The notes: a model not told the origin generated them from the sequence alone. Positions 22,721 to 28,644 are shown, counted from the first letter of the stretch. The stretch: 64,000 nucleotides of DNA from Escherichia phage vB_EcoM_PhAPEC2 (NC_024794.1); one strand, 5' to 3'. A program made the numbers and translations.

Positions 22721-22929
22721 TAATCCACAATCGGGAGCAAAGTACGATAAACTTCAAAATTAGGGCCTTTTTCGTACCCATTAACGTTATCTACGAAAAC
22801 CCGATACGAATTTTCATTAGGAAAATCTAATATAATCTGAGAGCAAGAGGTGGAAACATCTCCACCATCCTTCTTAGCTACAATAACTGTTTCTAAATAA
22901 GCTTTCATTATAAACCTGTCTGGGACCAC
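22720..22929 (-). CDS. Hypothetical protein (69 aa)
   Basis: ORF between ligase and alt; overlaps ligase 3-prime end by 22 nt, start uncertain. Confidence 0.35.
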   Translation of the reverse strand: MVPDRFIMKAYLETVIVAKKDGGDVSTSCSQIILDFPNENSYRVFVDNVNGYEKGPNFEVYRTLLPIVD

Positions 22930-24401
22930 GGTCCAAATACGTCTTCAAATGAATCCGCTTCTGTTTTATCAAAACGGAACCCTTTAATAATTGGAAGAAA
23001 AATACCTACAGTACCTTCACGGCCTTTAGAATGAACCCAACCGTTACATTCACAATCAGCGATACGTCCAATTAATTTACCTTCACGAGCTTCGGTCATT
23101 AATCGTTCACGGTCTAAATCATGACGCTCGTCTAAAGGAATAAGAACCTTTACACCATCAACTGTTTTATGAGTTGTATCTTTAAAACCTGAACCACAAT
23201 CGGTTGTAATACGACGACAACGTGATACGAGTTCGACACCACCTAATTTGTTAGGGTCTTTAGAGTGTTCATAGTATCCTACAACTTCTAAAGCGATATC
23301 AATAACTTCTTTAAATTTAATTAGGTTCTTAGAGCGTTTGTTTTCCCAATATGAATCACGGTTTTTAAGGATAATACCTTCAAGACCTTGGTCAACATAT
23401 TTTTTATAAACCACTTTAGCTTCGTCAAGATTACGAACTAACTGATTTTCAATTGGCTCAATTCGCTTAAAGCCTTCAGCCATATTTTCAAGAGCAGCAA
23501 AACGAACATCGTATTTCTGACCTTTAATTTTGCCATCAGAATAGACTTCATCTAAAGGAACATAGTCCCAGGCTTGAAGAACCATACCTTCCGCTTCTTT
23601 AGGAGAAATAGTCCCTTGAAGAGATTTATTTGCTAAACCATTTGAAGTGCTACGGTCTGCAACTTGTACTTCTTCGGATTCTTCATTATCACCAAATAAG
23701 AACGACAGGTCATTTCCTGAGCTCACAGCCTTTTTAATATCAAATGAATGATAAACTAATTCACCGTCGATTAAAACCCCATTAGGGTGTCTTTCACGAG
23801 CTTCTTTAGTCATTTCCATTAGTTCATCTGCTAATAGGGTAAGACCATGGTATTCATTACCAGCACGAGAAAAGAATTGAACACCAGCATCGCGAACTTC
23901 AGCGAAACAACGAGCACCATCGGCTTTTAATTGAGCAAATGCAGGCCATTTAATATTTTTAGTAATCAATTTCTCATCATATGCAGATGCTAACATCTGT
24001 GGTTGCAATTGAATAAGTCCAGGCCACACCTTATTCGCGATAGACACTGAAGCACCTACTTCAAGGTCGCGCATCATTACACGACGAAGGACTTCTACAT
24101 CATCAGGTTTACCGTCAGCGATATAACCCATGAGCTCTTTAATTGCAGCATTACCAGTGAGTTTACGAGTGGCTAATGTGAACTCAATAAAATCCAACAT
24201 GTCATCTAATTCAAGAAGACCATATGCTTGAGACCTTTCACCTGGTCCTGGCCATTTCTTAATATAATACTGGATACCACGTGCATATGCTAAACGATAC
24301 ACACGTTCAAGTAATTTGTTGTCCTTATTTTTCTTAAGGATTTCTTGTTTTGTTTTAGTAGAACCGATCGCAGCTATTTGGTTTAAAATATCTAAAATCA
24401 T
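22908..24401 (-). CDS. 30: ATP-dependent DNA ligase gp30
   Basis: 497 aa; adenylation motif I KADGARC; N-terminus matches T4 DNA ligase as recalled. Confidence 0.9.
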   Translation of the reverse strand: MILDILNQIAAIGSTKTKQEILKKNKDNKLLERVYRLAYARGIQYYIKKWPGPGERSQAYGLLELDDMLDFIEFTLATRKLTGNAAIKELMGYIADGKPDDVEVLRRVMMRDLEVGASVSIANKVWPGLIQLQPQMLASAYDEKLITKNIKWPAFAQLKADGARCFAEVRDAGVQFFSRAGNEYHGLTLLADELMEMTKEARERHPNGVLIDGELVYHSFDIKKAVSSGNDLSFLFGDNEESEEVQVADRSTSNGLANKSLQGTISPKEAEGMVLQAWDYVPLDEVYSDGKIKGQKYDVRFAALENMAEGFKRIEPIENQLVRNLDEAKVVYKKYVDQGLEGIILKNRDSYWENKRSKNLIKFKEVIDIALEVVGYYEHSKDPNKLGGVELVSRCRRITTDCGSGFKDTTHKTVDGVKVLIPLDERHDLDRERLMTEAREGKLIGRIADCECNGWVHSKGREGTVGIFLPIIKGFRFDKTEADSFEDVFGPWSQTGL

Positions 24402-24667
24402 TTGATGTCCTCGATTTTGGTTACGGTTCTATTATAAGCCACTTCATCTAGAAGCGATTTCAGCGTTTTCTGATAAGTGGTAATCCATTTACCGAGCCCT
24501 TCAACATAATATTCTGAAATGTAGATGAACCCTTGTTCAACACACTCTTTAAATATTTCTGCGTCTTTTACTGAACGAAACAATGGCCAGTCTCGAAAGA
24601 ACATGTTAACGTGACCGTAGTCACGTGTGGTATTTTTGCCATCTGTAATATCATGAACTACAAACAT
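24398..24667 (-). CDS. Hypothetical protein (89 aa)
   Basis: ORF overlapping ligase start by 4 nt (translational coupling). Confidence 0.45.
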   Translation of the reverse strand: MFVVHDITDGKNTTRDYGHVNMFFRDWPLFRSVKDAEIFKECVEQGFIYISEYYVEGLGKWITTYQKTLKSLLDEVAYNRTVTKIEDIK

Positions 24668-24676
24668 AATTAACCC

Positions 24677-25501
24677 TTAACAATTTATAGACCAAGTCCA
24701 TTTAGACGAATCTAAAGGAAAGTTTTGAATCGTCCACCACGGCTGCATATCAGTTGGTCCTGGGGTTCGCCAGGTATATGGAGTACGTGTTGTCGAGGGG
24801 CCACCAATTTGATTAGGCCATGCGCCTGGACTTGTTGCACCAGATTCTTTAAGCAAATCCGCCAATCGTTTTAAAAGGTCTTCACGATCTGAATCTGAAT
24901 TATGCTCTGGTGGAACCAAACGAGATTCAATATCATCCCACGTGTGTACACGTTGTGCAGTACGAGGAATGGCATCACGTTCACCACGAGCCAACCAATA
25001 AATCGGTACATTAAGAATTTCTGCCGCATGGTCACAGTGATGAGCTAAATCGTCAACATAACAAATCACGTTATATTTTGTTTTAGCTAGTTCGAATAAT
25101 TGTTCCTTTGAAGAATCATGACCACACATCATTACTTCAGAGAAAGCGCCTGGGAACAAAGCATTCAAATTAAATTGTCTATTCAATCGAGCATCAATTG
25201 AATCACCTAGCGCCGTCACGGCTACAAAATTATAGTCTTCTTTTAGTTTATTGATAACTCGAAGAGCATCCGAATAAGGCGCTAAGTAACGAATAAAATC
25301 AGAGCGATTATATTTTTCTATTAATTGTTTACCAAGGTTATCGTCGGTATTGAACAGTTTACCAGGAGAAATAAATTTTTCGTCCTGAATCATTTTTAAA
25401 ATATGTTCTAATGGAAGGTTATATTTTTGGGCAAAATAAGGAAGTCCAGATTGCCAGCTTAAACATACACCATCAATATCAGTCAAAATAGTAGGCTTCA
25501 T
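24677..25501 (-). CDS. Hypothetical protein with HAD-like phosphatase motifs and Pro/Trp-rich C-terminal tail
   Basis: 274 aa; N-terminal ILTDIDGV (HAD motif I DxDG[TV]) and later YVDD (motif IV-like); C-terminal ~60 aa unusually rich in P/T/W. Confidence 0.5.
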   Translation of the reverse strand: MKPTILTDIDGVCLSWQSGLPYFAQKYNLPLEHILKMIQDEKFISPGKLFNTDDNLGKQLIEKYNRSDFIRYLAPYSDALRVINKLKEDYNFVAVTALGDSIDARLNRQFNLNALFPGAFSEVMMCGHDSSKEQLFELAKTKYNVICYVDDLAHHCDHAAEILNVPIYWLARGERDAIPRTAQRVHTWDDIESRLVPPEHNSDSDREDLLKRLADLLKESGATSPGAWPNQIGGPSTTRTPYTWRTPGPTDMQPWWTIQNFPLDSSKWTWSINC

Positions 25502-25965
25502 AAAGAATCTCTTAATAGGTTTAACACATCAATAAATTCAGCTTCAGTTAGTATTGTATCATCTTTTGTTAGACCACTAGCCATGCTGTGCTTCAAAATT
25601 TTTCCTTTAGAGGCTTGTAAGGCATCACGAAACCCCTTGTTTTGGATCGCGGCTTCAAAATATGCATTTGTGTATAATTCTTTCCACGCTTCGGAGTATC
25701 TTGAAAATGGAACTCCTAACCAGAAGAGAGTCCCGCGGTCCTGAGCTCTTGCATAAGACCTTCCAGCTTGCTGTGCAGCCAATCCAGACAACCCAAATAT
25801 ACGTCTTTGTTGTTCAACATTTTTCACCTTACATCCTTGGAGAAATCCTTCAAGACCTCCGAATTGAATACCATCCATAACAAAAGGCCATTGAGCAAAG
25901 TTACTTAATGCACATGACGGCCACTTGAAATTACTTCTTATTTCTAATTCAGACATCTTTAACAC
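25498..25965 (-). CDS. YbiA/NADAR-like (DUF1768-type) protein
   Basis: 155 aa; segment LSNFAQWPFVMDG...LEGFLQGCK resembles the YbiA/NADAR signature (E. coli YbiA FSNFAAWPIKVDG...SEHYFQAQK, from memory). Confidence 0.5.
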   Translation of the reverse strand: MLKMSELEIRSNFKWPSCALSNFAQWPFVMDGIQFGGLEGFLQGCKVKNVEQQRRIFGLSGLAAQQAGRSYARAQDRGTLFWLGVPFSRYSEAWKELYTNAYFEAAIQNKGFRDALQASKGKILKHSMASGLTKDDTILTEAEFIDVLNLLRDSL

Positions 25966-26167
25966 TTATAATTTCAACATCAGCCCAATGGCCGTATCCT
26001 GGTATACGATCTTCGATAGATAAATTTCTGTCATTTTTAGGCATTTTAATTGACGTAACGTATGGTTCTAAACGGTTTTCTGCATAATATGGAAAAACGT
26101 CCGTCACACGATAAGTAACTTCAATCATTTCTGTACCAAACAATTTCTGGATTAATTTTTTAAGCAT
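25949..26167 (-). CDS. Hypothetical protein (72 aa)
   Basis: ORF in early gene cluster; overlaps neighbour by 17 nt. Confidence 0.4.
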   Translation of the reverse strand: MLKKLIQKLFGTEMIEVTYRVTDVFPYYAENRLEPYVTSIKMPKNDRNLSIEDRIPGYGHWADVEIISVKDV

Positions 26168-26171
26168 TTTA

Positions 26172-26459
26172 TTAGAACCTCATCTGAAAGCCATGTGATT
26201 TAACATTACCGCCGCCAATATCAGAAATGTTAATTTCACTTGCAATCGAAGGATCGATGTCAATTTCACGATTAAGTTTAGTGATAGCTAAAGTATCATG
26301 CCCATTTACTGTACGAAACTCCAAAGGACATACTACGTTGACGTAGTGTTTAATTGACTCGCTAGTAGGTTGCAAATGGGCTGGAAGGTCTTTAGGTGCT
26401 TTAGAGAAAACAACTTCACAAAAGTTTTTGCGGGTATCAAAATAAGTGGTCATAAACAT
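26172..26459 (-). CDS. Hypothetical protein (95 aa)
   Basis: ORF in early gene cluster. Confidence 0.4.
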   Translation of the reverse strand: MFMTTYFDTRKNFCEVVFSKAPKDLPAHLQPTSESIKHYVNVVCPLEFRTVNGHDTLAITKLNREIDIDPSIASEINISDIGGGNVKSHGFQMRF

Positions 26460-26500
26460 AATATTTTCCTCAATTGGGAGCCGAAGCCTCCATTTTAAGA

Positions 26501-26929
26501 TTAGATATCGAATTCGTTAAGAACTACATCAAAGATTGCTTCGAGATGTTCAGGTTTAGCTCGGTTACTCAGGATATGACGAATCCAAGTTTTAACCAGA
26601 AGTTTACGATTAACACCGTTCCAGCAAGGATGAGTACCTAAATCACGTTGACGGAAATCGTCATCTAATGCAATTTTGAAGTTGGAACCTTCCATCGTGA
26701 TTGAAACCGTGATGCCATTTTCAAATCGCATATAAACGTAATTAGGAGTCATATACTGCTCAATTTCGCATACTGAACCGTTATTATGCTTCCATAAGCA
26801 AATCGTATCGATAGAACCAGCGATACCGTTAGAAACATATTTGCGTTCGAAGTTGGTGTAGTTCATTTTATTCTCCAGATGTTTAAGTTGTTTGTTGGTA
26901 CAGGTATATAATAACATATCCTGTACCAA
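26501..26929 (-). CDS. Hypothetical protein (142 aa as given; true start may be the internal Met MNYTNFERKY)
   Basis: ORF; start ambiguity. Confidence 0.4.
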   Translation of the reverse strand: MVQDMLLYTCTNKQLKHLENKMNYTNFERKYVSNGIAGSIDTICLWKHNNGSVCEIEQYMTPNYVYMRFENGITVSITMEGSNFKIALDDDFRQRDLGTHPCWNGVNRKLLVKTWIRHILSNRAKPEHLEAIFDVVLNEFDI

Positions 26930-26940
26930 AGTAAACTGGT

Positions 26941-27309
26941 TTATGCAACTTTAATCCAATTGTCTAAATTTAAAACACCTTTGGCTTTCATTTTTTCGAT
27001 CAGGTTATCTGCTGTAATGCGTCCATTTTGATACCATGTAACATCTTCAGAGTAACCAGTTTCTTCATCAACATATGTTTCTGAACGAATTTTACCGGTA
27101 ATAATAGTTTTTAATTCGTATGTGTCACCTGTGAAAAAGTTTGCTAACACAATTTTCCAAGAGAAATCATTTGAAGGGCCTTCAGGGGTCATACAACCTA
27201 CGAACTCAAATTGCTCTTTGTATAACATCCACTGGAATTCTTTAATTTCGATAGCTTTATAACCGTCGTGGTCTTTACATTTGATGTATGAGTTCAGATT
27301 GATTTTCAT
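26941..27309 (-). CDS. Hypothetical protein (122 aa)
   Basis: ORF; early-type promoter-like sequence upstream at about 27330-27380. Confidence 0.45.
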   Translation of the reverse strand: MKINLNSYIKCKDHDGYKAIEIKEFQWMLYKEQFEFVGCMTPEGPSNDFSWKIVLANFFTGDTYELKTIITGKIRSETYVDEETGYSEDVTWYQNGRITADNLIEKMKAKGVLNLDNWIKVA

Positions 27310-28607: not shown

Positions 28608-28632
28608 CGATAGATTAATAATACCATACTAT
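28608..28632 (-). promoter_or_regulatory. Middle (MotA-dependent) promoter upstream of gene 31
   Basis: On the minus strand: MotA box TGCTTTA, 12-nt spacer, TATTAT, about 20 nt upstream of gene 31 ATG. Confidence 0.6.
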
Positions 28633-28644
28633 TCGTAAAGCATA

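What the first reader, a model, noticed from the sequence alone, without database searches (positions are those of the whole stretch)
24677..25965. Adjacent HAD-like hydrolase (with Pro/Trp-rich tail) and YbiA/NADAR-like ORFs: candidate ADP-ribose or nucleotide-damage processing pair
ORF 25498..25965 carries an LSNFAQWP...DG...LEGFLQGCK segment resembling the signature of the YbiA/NADAR family. NADAR proteins are N-glycosidases; members are reported to remove ADP-ribose from guanine bases modified by DarT-type toxins. The translationally coupled downstream ORF 24677..25501 has HAD motif I (ILTDIDGV) and a DD motif, and ends in an unusual ~60-aa P/T/W-rich tail. An early-expressed NADAR-like enzyme is a plausible counter-defence factor against DNA ADP-ribosylating toxin systems, but nothing in the sequence proves this.
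Basis: partly seen in the sequence, partly recalled or inferred. Interest (0 to 1): 0.55.

Follow-up and report, generated by a model that had tools for sequence, protein, structure and literature searches.

The report
Known anti-DarT enzyme AdfN plus phosphatase
These are genes 30.3 and 30.2 of an RB69-like T-even phage: 30.3 is an intact copy of AdfN, an enzyme already shown to strip ADP-ribose off phage DNA and defeat the bacterial DarTG1 defence. Its neighbour 30.2 is an uncharacterised phosphatase that published genetics says is not needed for that job.

Summary
The window comes from a Mosigvirus (RB69-like T-even phage).

**Gene 30.3 (25498..25956, minus strand).** It matches Pfam Phage_30_3 at E=5e-69. 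It is 97% identical to T4 AdfN and 99% identical to the Bas46 allele. It keeps catalytic E36, K43 and H123. It lacks the one-base insertion that truncates and inactivates the RB69 copy. Its model matches only the three solved NADAR structures. T4 AdfN has been shown, in vitro and in vivo, to be a guanine-ADP-ribose DNA glycohydrolase that neutralises DarTG1 (Johannesman 2025; Toxins 2024; HIDEN-SEQ 2025).

**The "pair" reading is not supported.**
- T4 transposon sequencing shows 30.2 is dispensable on DarTG1 (log2FC -0.12, against -7.25 for 30.3).
- The two genes lie 57 kb apart in Jiaodavirus.
- A distant 30.3-family NADAR has no HAD neighbour.

Low novelty.

The parts
25498..25956 (-). Gene 30.3 = adfN (anti-DarT factor NADAR), 152 aa plus stop, full-length allele
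   Evidence: Pfam PF08010 E=5.1e-69. 97% aa identity to T4 AdfN and 99% to Bas46. AF2 pLDDT 92.4. The top three PDB matches are the three NADAR structures.
25828..25851 (-). Codons for catalytic E36 (25849-25851) and K43 (25828-25830) in the EGFLQGCK motif
   Evidence: Invariant in the 92-sequence family alignment. Codons verified. E36A and K43A impair T4 AdfN (PMC11825919).
25588..25590 (-). Codon for H123, the histidine in the last strand that marks the phage gp30.3 NADAR subfamily
   Evidence: Invariant in A5. Codon verified. Subfamily feature described in PMC11125620 and PMC11543638.
25501..25545 (-). C-terminal helix of AdfN (aa 138-152). It is lost in RB69 through a T insertion after codon 137.
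   Evidence: The DNA alignment shows RB69 has an extra T at this point and the window does not. The protein alignment agrees. Helix 138-151 appears in the model. The truncation reduces activity.
25498..25501 (-). ATGA overlap between the 30.3 stop and the 30.2 start
   Evidence: Read directly from the sequence. T4 has the same arrangement.
24677..25501 (-). Gene 30.2, 274 aa plus stop: HAD-superfamily phosphatase-like protein with a variable tail
24917..25501 (-). HAD catalytic domain with helical C1 cap (aa 1-195). Motif I D8/D10, W16, motif II T96, motif III K132, motif IV D150/D151.
   Evidence: Invariant or nearly invariant in 84 homologues. Codons verified. dN/dS 0.055 against T4.
24680..24835 (-). 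Pro/Thr/Trp-rich C-terminal tail (aa 223-274), predicted disordered and hypervariable between phages
   Evidence: Block-mean pLDDT for residues 221-274 is 39-53. 44% P+T+W. Tail length ranges from 0 to 148 aa among homologues. dN/dS 0.62 and 31% identity to T4 over aa 196-274.
25949..26167 (-). Gene 30.4 (72 aa, unknown function), upstream of adfN and overlapping its start by 8 nt. Context only.
   Evidence: PHROG 2042 E=1.5e-35. Overlap read. It is the only other significant gene seen in the T4 DarTG1 Tn-seq sheet (genes 1-25 not read).
24398..24667 (-). Gene 30.1 (DUF3045), downstream neighbour. Context only.
   Evidence: Pfam PF11243 E=1.4e-26.

Best explanation
The window is from an RB69-like T-even phage (Mosigvirus). 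The two ORFs are its genes 30.3 and 30.2, part of the early-transcribed accessory block between genes 31 and 30 (DNA ligase).

**Gene 30.3 is adfN.** It encodes a small stand-alone NADAR-fold N-glycosidase. When a host DarT1 toxin ADP-ribosylates guanines in replicating phage DNA, AdfN hydrolyses the ribose-guanine bond. This releases ADP-ribose and restores the base, so replication continues and the DarTG1 abortive defence fails. The activity and the phenotype are shown for the T4 orthologue. For this allele they are inferred from three facts: 97-99% identity to functional alleles, intact catalytic E36/K43/H123, and an intact C-terminal helix. Unlike RB69, this phage is therefore predicted to be DarTG1-resistant.

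**Gene 30.2 is a Mg-dependent HAD phosphatase.** It has a DxD nucleophile and acid, and a C1 helical cap typical of small-molecule substrates. It is distantly related to NT5C 5'(3')-deoxyribonucleotidases, so a (deoxy)nucleoside monophosphate is the most likely substrate. That substrate call is an inference, at about 40% confidence. The enzyme carries a disordered, rapidly evolving Pro/Thr/Trp-rich tail. I speculate that the tail is a protein-interaction or localisation appendage.

**The two genes are syntenic neighbours sharing a transcript, not an obligate functional pair.**
For: **Identity of the locus.** The region is 97-98% identical in DNA to phiC120, RB69, Bas46 and many other Mosigvirus records, with the gene order 30 / 30.1 / 30.2 / 30.3 / 30.4.

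**AdfN.**
- PF08010 at E=5.1e-69.
- 97% identical to T4 and 99% to Bas46.
- No RB69-type insertion.
- E36, K43 and H123 are invariant in 92 homologues.
- The family profile hits YbiA 2b3w at E=0.0045.
- The model has pLDDT 92.4. Its top three PDB matches are YbiA, PnNADAR-ADPr and G. lovleyi NADAR.
- Published function: PMC11825919, PMC11125620, and HIDEN-SEQ, where 30.3 has log2FC -7.25 on DarTG1.
- Bas46 is DarTG1-resistant although it has an inactive AdfA allele.

**gp30.2.**
- The HAD motifs are invariant.
- Model pLDDT is 85, with residues 1-222 confident.
- W16 aligns with the Phe of the cdN motif DGVLADF.
- Weak NT5C hits occur in 18 of 84 members. A distant family member, P0341, passes the NT5C gathering score.

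**Not a pair.**
- 30.2 has log2FC -0.12 (p=0.61) on DarTG1 and 0.00 on DarTG2.
- The genes are separated by 57 kb in Klebsiella phage KP01 and by four ORFs in GuL6.
- A distant PF08010 gene has no HAD neighbour.

**Expression.** In T4, both genes have early RNA and both proteins are detected.
Against: No experiment has been done on this exact allele. Four residues differ from T4 AdfN (K11R, E89P, I120V, M125I).

T4 AdfN works fully only during T-even infection and does not rescue DarT1 toxicity in uninfected cells. An unidentified phage factor is therefore involved.

The Tn-seq data are from T4, whose gp30.2 tail differs from this one. They also test only two defence systems. Redundancy could hide a contribution.
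Confidence: 0.82

Rival explanations
1. Functional pair. In this reading gp30.2 works with AdfN. It would either be the unidentified T-even factor that potentiates or localises AdfN, or it would dephosphorylate an ADP-ribose-derived product.
For: A 4-nt ATGA overlap is conserved in T4 and in the window. Both genes occur in nearly the same sets of Straboviridae: 1437 against 1509 records, with matching genus counts. The block of high T4-window identity covers adfN plus the first ~50 codons of 30.2. AdfN-T4 needs an unknown T-even factor.
Against: T4 Tn-seq with 71 TA sites in 30.2 gives log2FC -0.12 and adjusted p=1 on DarTG1, and 0.00 on DarTG2. The genes are 57 kb apart in Jiaodavirus and are separated by four ORFs in Pseudotevenvirus. 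A distant PF08010 NADAR is followed by a non-HAD protein, with hhalign probability 0.1%. The NADAR reaction needs no phosphatase. AdfN is 97% conserved between T4 and the window, while the gp30.2 tail is 31% identical. That is not what co-evolving partners would show.
Confidence: 0.07
2. The physiological substrate of AdfN is not ADP-ribosylated DNA. Instead it would be a soluble ADP-ribose derivative or signal, or a riboflavin-pathway intermediate as for YbiA. The DarTG1 phenotype would then be secondary.
For: Iyer et al. [quoted passage not shown] The best structural match is YbiA. AdfN-T4 does not detoxify DarT1 in uninfected E. coli.
Against: Purified T4 gp30.3 removes ADPr from guanine-modified DNA in two independent studies. 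adfN deletion makes T4 and T2 DarTG1-sensitive, and the E36A and K43A mutants are impaired. Tn-seq confirms this.
Confidence: 0.05
3. gp30.2 is not a phosphatase. It would be another type of HAD enzyme (a dehalogenase or epoxide-hydrolase type), or a catalytically dead scaffold whose real function lies in the tail.
Against: The second Asp of DxD (D10) is invariant in 84 sequences. By established HAD knowledge it is the general acid/base of phosphotransferases and is absent from dehalogenases. K132 is also invariant, and D150/D151 are nearly so. dN/dS for the domain is 0.055, which indicates a constrained active enzyme. Most family members lack any tail, so the domain, not the tail, is the conserved function.
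Confidence: 0.08

Closest known systems
AdfN (T4 gp30.3), anti-DarT factor NADAR; Johannesman et al., Nat Commun 2025 (PMC11825919)
   Same: It is the orthologue: 148 of 152 residues are identical. The genomic position is the same, between 30.4 and 30.2. It has the same E36/K43/H123 and the same full-length C-terminal helix.
   Different: Four conservative or surface substitutions. The host phage is a Mosigvirus, not a Tequatrovirus. No experiment has been done on this allele, although the 99%-identical Bas46 phage is DarTG1-resistant.
RB69 gp30.3 (natural loss-of-function adfN allele)
   Same: The closest classical genome overall. The region is 97% identical in DNA.
   Different: RB69 has a one-base T insertion after codon 137 and loses the last 15 residues. 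The window does not have it.
DarG1 / DarT1-associated NADAR antitoxins (BC4488 subfamily; G. lovleyi NADAR, PDB 8bat)
   Same: Same fold and the same guanine-ADPr glycohydrolase chemistry. It is the third-best structural match. The literature reports these as the closest relatives of the phage clade.
   Different: Here there is no adjacent DarT and no N-terminal extension. The last-strand catalytic residue is His, not Asp. There is no PADLOC hit. It is an orphan, phage-borne enzyme.
E. coli YbiA (PDB 2b3w), N-glycosidase of the YbiA subfamily
   Same: It is the best structural and profile match: Foldseek E=8e-5 with TM 0.69, and profile E=0.0045.
   Different: 17% identity. YbiA has Glu where AdfN has His123. 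YbiA is a housekeeping, riboflavin-related enzyme and does not protect against DarT1 in vivo.
NT5C family: cytosolic and mitochondrial 5'(3')-deoxyribonucleotidases (cdN/mdN; PDB 2jao, 1mh9). Comparison for gp30.2.
   Same: HAD fold with C1 cap. Motif I is D-x-D-G-V, with an aromatic residue at nucleophile+8 (W16 against Phe). These give the lowest-rmsd Foldseek matches (4.4-4.7 A, TM 0.62-0.65). The family link is transitive, through P0341.
   Different: 13-18% identity. The window protein is below the Pfam NT5C threshold. It also has a ~50-residue disordered Pro/Thr/Trp tail that is absent from NT5C enzymes. Substrate untested.

Membership tests
Phage gp30.3 / AdfN clade of the NADAR superfamily | Sequence match to Pfam PF08010 (Phage_30_3) above the curated cut-off | tested here: met
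   230.9 bits against a cut-off of 36, E=5.1e-69, covering model positions 1-138 of 138.
Phage gp30.3 / AdfN clade of the NADAR superfamily | [quoted passage not shown] | tested here: met
   AF2 model with pLDDT 92.4 and pTM 0.88. The only meaningful PDB matches are YbiA 2b3w, PnNADAR 8bau and G. lovleyi NADAR 8bat.
Phage gp30.3 / AdfN clade of the NADAR superfamily | Catalytic Glu and Lys (E36, K43 in T4 numbering) | tested here: met
   Present in the window and invariant in 92 homologues. Their role was shown by mutagenesis in T4.
Phage gp30.3 / AdfN clade of the NADAR superfamily | Histidine in the last strand, replacing the Glu of YbiA and the Asp of DarG1-type NADARs | tested here: met
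   H123 is invariant. It lies in strand 120-123 of the model. The feature is described.
Phage gp30.3 / AdfN clade of the NADAR superfamily | Intact C-terminal helix, required for full activity and missing in RB69 | tested here: met
   Residues 138-152 are present and identical to T4. There is no T insertion. The model shows helix 138-151.
Phage gp30.3 / AdfN clade of the NADAR superfamily | Hydrolysis of guanine-linked ADP-ribose on DNA, and protection from DarTG1 during infection | not testable with these tools
   Shown for the 97%-identical T4 protein. Resistance was observed for phage Bas46, which carries a 99%-identical allele.
DarG1 antitoxin (DarT1-associated NADAR of a toxin-antitoxin operon) | Encoded next to a DarT1 ADP-ribosyltransferase and carrying the N-terminal extension | tested here: not met
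   The neighbours are 30.4 and 30.2. There is no PADLOC hit. The protein has 152 aa, and the Pfam domain starts about 10 residues after the ATG start (residue 14 of the 155-aa ORF scanned). It works like DarG1 but is an orphan.
HAD (haloacid dehalogenase-like) superfamily | Rossmannoid HAD core fold with a cap inserted after motif I (C1 type) | tested here: met
HAD (haloacid dehalogenase-like) superfamily | Four catalytic motifs: DxD, S/T, K, DD | tested here: met
   D8, D10 and K132 are invariant. T96, D150 and D151 are at least 90% conserved in 84 homologues. Codons verified.
HAD (haloacid dehalogenase-like) superfamily | Score above the curated threshold of a Pfam or NCBIfam HAD model | tested here: not met
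   HAD_2 scores 15.4 bits against a cut-off of 23.8. TIGR01428 scores 12.7 against 125.4. Only distant relatives pass (P0290 Hydrolase 28.8 > 26.4). This family is too diverged for the curated models, so membership rests on fold and motifs.
NT5C 5'(3')-deoxyribonucleotidase family (PF06941) | Pfam PF06941 above the gathering score | tested here: inconclusive
   There is no hit for the window protein. 18 of 84 homologues have weak hits, the best at E=0.002. P0341, a distant member of the gp30.2 family profile (E=6e-17), passes at 34.1 > 24.8.
NT5C 5'(3')-deoxyribonucleotidase family (PF06941) | Aromatic base-stacking residue eight positions after the nucleophile (DxDGVLADF) | tested here: met
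   W16 is invariant. It aligns with the Phe of mouse cdN in the phmmer alignment. That this Phe stacks on the base is recalled from the cdN/mdN structure papers and was not tested here.
NT5C 5'(3')-deoxyribonucleotidase family (PF06941) | dNMP phosphatase activity | not testable with these tools
   No biochemical data were found for any gp30.2 homologue. No paper mentions gp30.2.

The most novel reading that the evidence does not exclude
The unidentified T-even factor that AdfN needs for full activity could be encoded in the same translationally coupled gene string. One candidate is the small upstream gp30.4. It is the only other gene seen to be significantly depleted on DarTG1 in T4 Tn-seq, and it is confined to the same ~720 T-even records that carry the highly conserved AdfN type. 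The other candidate is gp30.2, acting redundantly through its variable Trp/Pro tail. Alternatively, gp30.2 could be a nucleotide phosphatase that counters a different, untested nucleotide-based defence.
Probability: 0.1. Interest if true: 0.55.

Novelty: already known. Interest (0 to 1): 0.2.

Why it matters
For annotation, gene 30.3 of this phage can be named adfN, and the phage can be predicted to resist DarTG1, unlike its classical relative RB69. That is useful when choosing or engineering T-even phages against hosts that carry DarTG.

That is a good calibration point, but the biology was published in 2024-2025.

Two questions remain open. The first is the substrate and role of gp30.2, a conserved HAD phosphatase family with ~1,000 representative clusters and no described function. 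The second is the identity of the T-even factor that potentiates AdfN. Existing Tn-seq data argue that this factor is not gp30.2.

Tried and rejected
1. **Direct sequence searches against PDB sequences.** gp30.2 gave only noise-level hits (cdN at E=0.55) and AdfN gave none. The gp30.2 family profile was no better. Fold comparison was needed.
2. **NCBIfam and PADLOC scans.** Nothing usable.
3. **Generic sigma-70 promoter and terminator scan of 22.6-29.6 kb.** The counts were no higher than in shuffles, so no promoter is claimed. MotA-box-like sites are enriched window-wide, but the nearest one is upstream of gene 31.
4. **Literature search for gp30.2.** No papers. A search for 30.1/30.2/30.3 with phage T4 found only an unrelated tRNA paper.
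5. **gp30.2 as the AdfN cofactor.** I rejected this as the leading explanation after reading the T4 DarTG1 and DarTG2 Tn-seq tables and finding that synteny is broken elsewhere.
6. **An independent NADAR-HAD linkage in a distant lineage.** In the jumbo-phage-like contigs carrying P0142, the 254-aa gene just downstream of the NADAR is not a HAD.
7. **gp30.4 homologues upstream of AdfN in GuL6 and KP01.** None found.

Full report
**What is there**

The interval holds two minus-strand ORFs, at 25498..25965 and 24677..25501. They lie in a co-directional string: alt, 30 (DNA ligase, 22908..24401), 30.1 (DUF3045), the two ORFs, several small ORFs, gene 31 and cd.

Megablast places the region in RB69-like T-even phages (Mosigvirus), at 97-98% identity to phiC120, RB69, G53, Bas46 and more than 130 other records. 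The RB69 and T4 annotations name the two ORFs 30.3 and 30.2.

The ORF finder starts 30.3 at GTG 25965. The ATG at 25954-25956 gives a 152-aa product that is colinear with the T4 and RB69 genes and reproduces the published residue numbering. The upstream gene 30.4 overlaps this ATG by 8 nt. The 30.3 stop overlaps the 30.2 start in an ATGA. The tail of gp30.2 (residues 223-274) is 44% Pro, Thr or Trp, against 9% in the rest of the protein.

**Gene 30.3 is adfN**

The protein matches Pfam PF08010 (Phage_30_3) end to end at E=5.1e-69. A 92-sequence family alignment has E36, K43 and H123 invariant. Its profile finds E. coli YbiA among all PDB sequences at E=0.0045. The AlphaFold model (pLDDT 92.4) has exactly three meaningful PDB matches, and all three are NADAR structures: YbiA 2b3w, Phytophthora NADAR with ADP-ribose 8bau, and Geobacter lovleyi NADAR 8bat.

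The literature settles the function:
- Schuller et al. 2023 showed that NADARs reverse guanine ADP-ribosylation by DarT1. They noted that phage NADARs have His where YbiA has Glu.
- A 2024 Toxins paper showed that T4 gp30.3 hydrolyses guanine-ADPr DNA in vitro.
- Johannesman et al. 2025 named the protein AdfN. They showed it is necessary (T4 and T2 deletions) and sufficient (rescue of RB69) against DarTG1. They also showed that E36A and K43A impair it, and that RB69 is DarTG1-sensitive because a T insertion at nucleotide 411 truncates the last 15 residues.
- A T4 transposon screen confirmed this, with 30.3 at log2FC -7.25 on DarTG1.

The window allele is 97% identical to T4 AdfN. It is 99% identical to the allele of Bas46, a phage reported as fully DarTG1-resistant although it carries an inactive AdfA variant. 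The DNA alignment shows that the RB69 insertion is absent. I therefore predict an active AdfN and a DarTG1-resistant phage. That last step is an inference from identity, not a measurement.

**Gene 30.2 is a HAD phosphatase of unknown substrate**

Sequence models barely see this protein. HAD_2 scores E=0.02, below its threshold, and mouse cdN scores E=0.55. Three other lines of evidence do place it in the HAD superfamily:
- In 84 homologues the four HAD motifs are fixed: D8 and D10 invariant, T96 nearly invariant, K132 invariant, D150/D151 nearly invariant.
- The conserved second Asp marks phosphotransferases rather than dehalogenases. This point rests on established HAD knowledge.

- These are the lowest-rmsd Foldseek matches.
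- Motif I is DxDGV, and the invariant W16 aligns with the cdN Phe at nucleophile+8.
- 18 of 84 homologues have weak NT5C hits.
- An exhaustive profile search reaches 1,034 cluster representatives. A distant one, P0341, passes the NT5C gathering score.

I therefore favour a nucleoside-monophosphate phosphatase, at about 40% confidence.

The tail is predicted disordered (pLDDT below 50). Among homologues its length varies from 0 to 148 residues, and most family members lack a tail. It is only 31% identical to T4 with dN/dS 0.62, whereas the catalytic domain has dN/dS 0.055. Its function is unknown. A protein-interaction role is speculation.

**Are they a pair?**

Evidence for a pair:
- The ATGA overlap is shared with T4.
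- The two genes have near-identical phyletic spread across Straboviridae (1437 against 1509 records).
- There is an open question in the field. AdfN-T4 works fully only in T-even infections and is thought to need an unknown T-even factor.

Evidence against:
- I read the supplementary Tn-seq tables of the HIDEN-SEQ preprint. With 71 TA sites, 30.2 has log2FC -0.12 (p=0.61, adjusted p=1) on DarTG1 and 0.00 on DarTG2. It is non-essential on K-12.
- In Klebsiella phage KP01 (Jiaodavirus) the 30.3 homologue sits in the tRNA cluster, 57 kb from the 30.2 homologue. In Buttiauxella phage GuL6 four ORFs separate them.
- In jumbo-phage-like contigs a PF08010 gene is followed by a protein that is not a HAD.
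- NADAR hydrolysis yields ADP-ribose and repaired DNA, so the chemistry does not need a phosphatase.

I conclude that the adjacency is inherited synteny within an early operon. In T4, both genes have early RNA, with 30.2 protein appearing in the middle class and 30.3 protein in the late class.

**Side observations**

- In the same Tn-seq sheet, 30.4 is the only other significant gene I saw (log2FC -1.79, adjusted p=0.014). I read the rows from gene 26 to the end, so genes 1-25 were not checked. Gene 30.5 shows -3.0 (not significant), 30.6 shows -0.3, and downstream 30.2 shows nothing. This upstream-only gradient looks like polarity onto adfN. However, gp30.4 occurs in the same ~720 T-even records that carry the highly conserved AdfN type, so it remains a low-probability cofactor candidate.
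- T4-window divergence is mosaic. adfN, the first ~50 codons of 30.2, and genes 30.6-30.7 are 83-97% identical (dS ~0.5-0.6). The ligase, 30.1, the rest of 30.2 and 30.4 are 40-75% identical (dS 1.6-2.3). This suggests recent exchange of the adfN block between genera.
- Many database gp30.3 entries are truncated or fused to neighbouring ORFs. Natural inactivation, as in RB69, seems to recur.

**Verdict**

The NADAR counter-defence reading is right but already established experimentally for the orthologue. The HAD call is right at the fold level. The functional pairing is not supported. Novelty is low. The open items are the gp30.2 substrate, the role of its tail, and the unidentified AdfN-potentiating factor.

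Noticed in passing
window 25949-26167 (gene 30.4, minus strand): In published T4 Tn-seq on a DarTG1 host, 30.4 is the only gene besides adfN that I saw significantly depleted (log2FC -1.79, adjusted p=0.014; genes 1-25 not read). It overlaps the adfN start by 8 nt. It occurs in ~720 T-even records, about the same set that carries the AdfN type with >=80% identity. Polarity is the likelier cause, but it is a candidate for the unknown AdfN cofactor. No homologue lies upstream of AdfN in GuL6 or KP01.
   Followed up: partly
window 25350-26000 and 26184-26960, compared with T4 (L002): Divergence from T4 is mosaic. adfN with the 5' end of 30.2, and genes 30.6-30.7, are 83-97% identical in DNA (dS 0.5-0.6). 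The flanking ligase, 30.1, the 3' part of 30.2 and 30.4 are 40-75% identical (dS 1.6-2.3). This suggests recent recombinational exchange of these blocks between Tequatrovirus and Mosigvirus.
   Followed up: partly
proteins P0102-P0116, P0119, P0152, P0200 (homologues of window 25498-25956): Many database gp30.3 sequences from T-even phages and metagenomes are N- or C-terminally truncated, or are chimeras with parts of 30.4- or 30.7-like ORFs. This points to recurrent natural disruption of adfN, as in RB69. Assembly or annotation errors are not excluded.
   Followed up: partly
window ~26161 (between genes 30.4 and 30.6): T4 gene 30.5 has no counterpart here; the alignment shows a gap. The T4 internal out-of-frame ORF 30.3' is not preserved as an ORF of 40 aa or more inside the window's adfN.
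   Followed up: no
L003 (Klebsiella phage KP01) 3001-3450: In Jiaodavirus the AdfN homologue (about 42% identity) is embedded in the tRNA gene cluster, 57 kb from the gp30.2 homologue. A 185-aa unknown ORF abuts it upstream.
   Followed up: partly
L005 4001-8468 (metagenomic contig of 308 kb, jumbo-phage-like): A distant PF08010 NADAR (38% identity) lies in a conserved block with unknown 254-aa and 417-aa proteins, a NUDIX hydrolase and a Thg1-like gene. This may be a different NAD/ADPr or RNA-repair context.
   Followed up: no
window, whole (minus strand), e.g. 28618-28642 upstream of gene 31: MotA-box-like middle-promoter patterns (TGCTTNA, then 11-13 nt, then TANNNT) occur 12 times against 3.9 expected. 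All are on the minus strand, which fits T4-type middle transcription of this region.
   Followed up: no
gp30.2 tails in alignment A4 (e.g. P0023-P0027, P0039-P0043, T4): Many gp30.2 tails, including T4's but not the window/RB69 type, end in a recurring G(I/V)GTGIEYL-x-RQPT-like motif. The window type ends in ...SSKWTWSINC instead. There seem to be at least two tail classes of unknown meaning.
   Followed up: no
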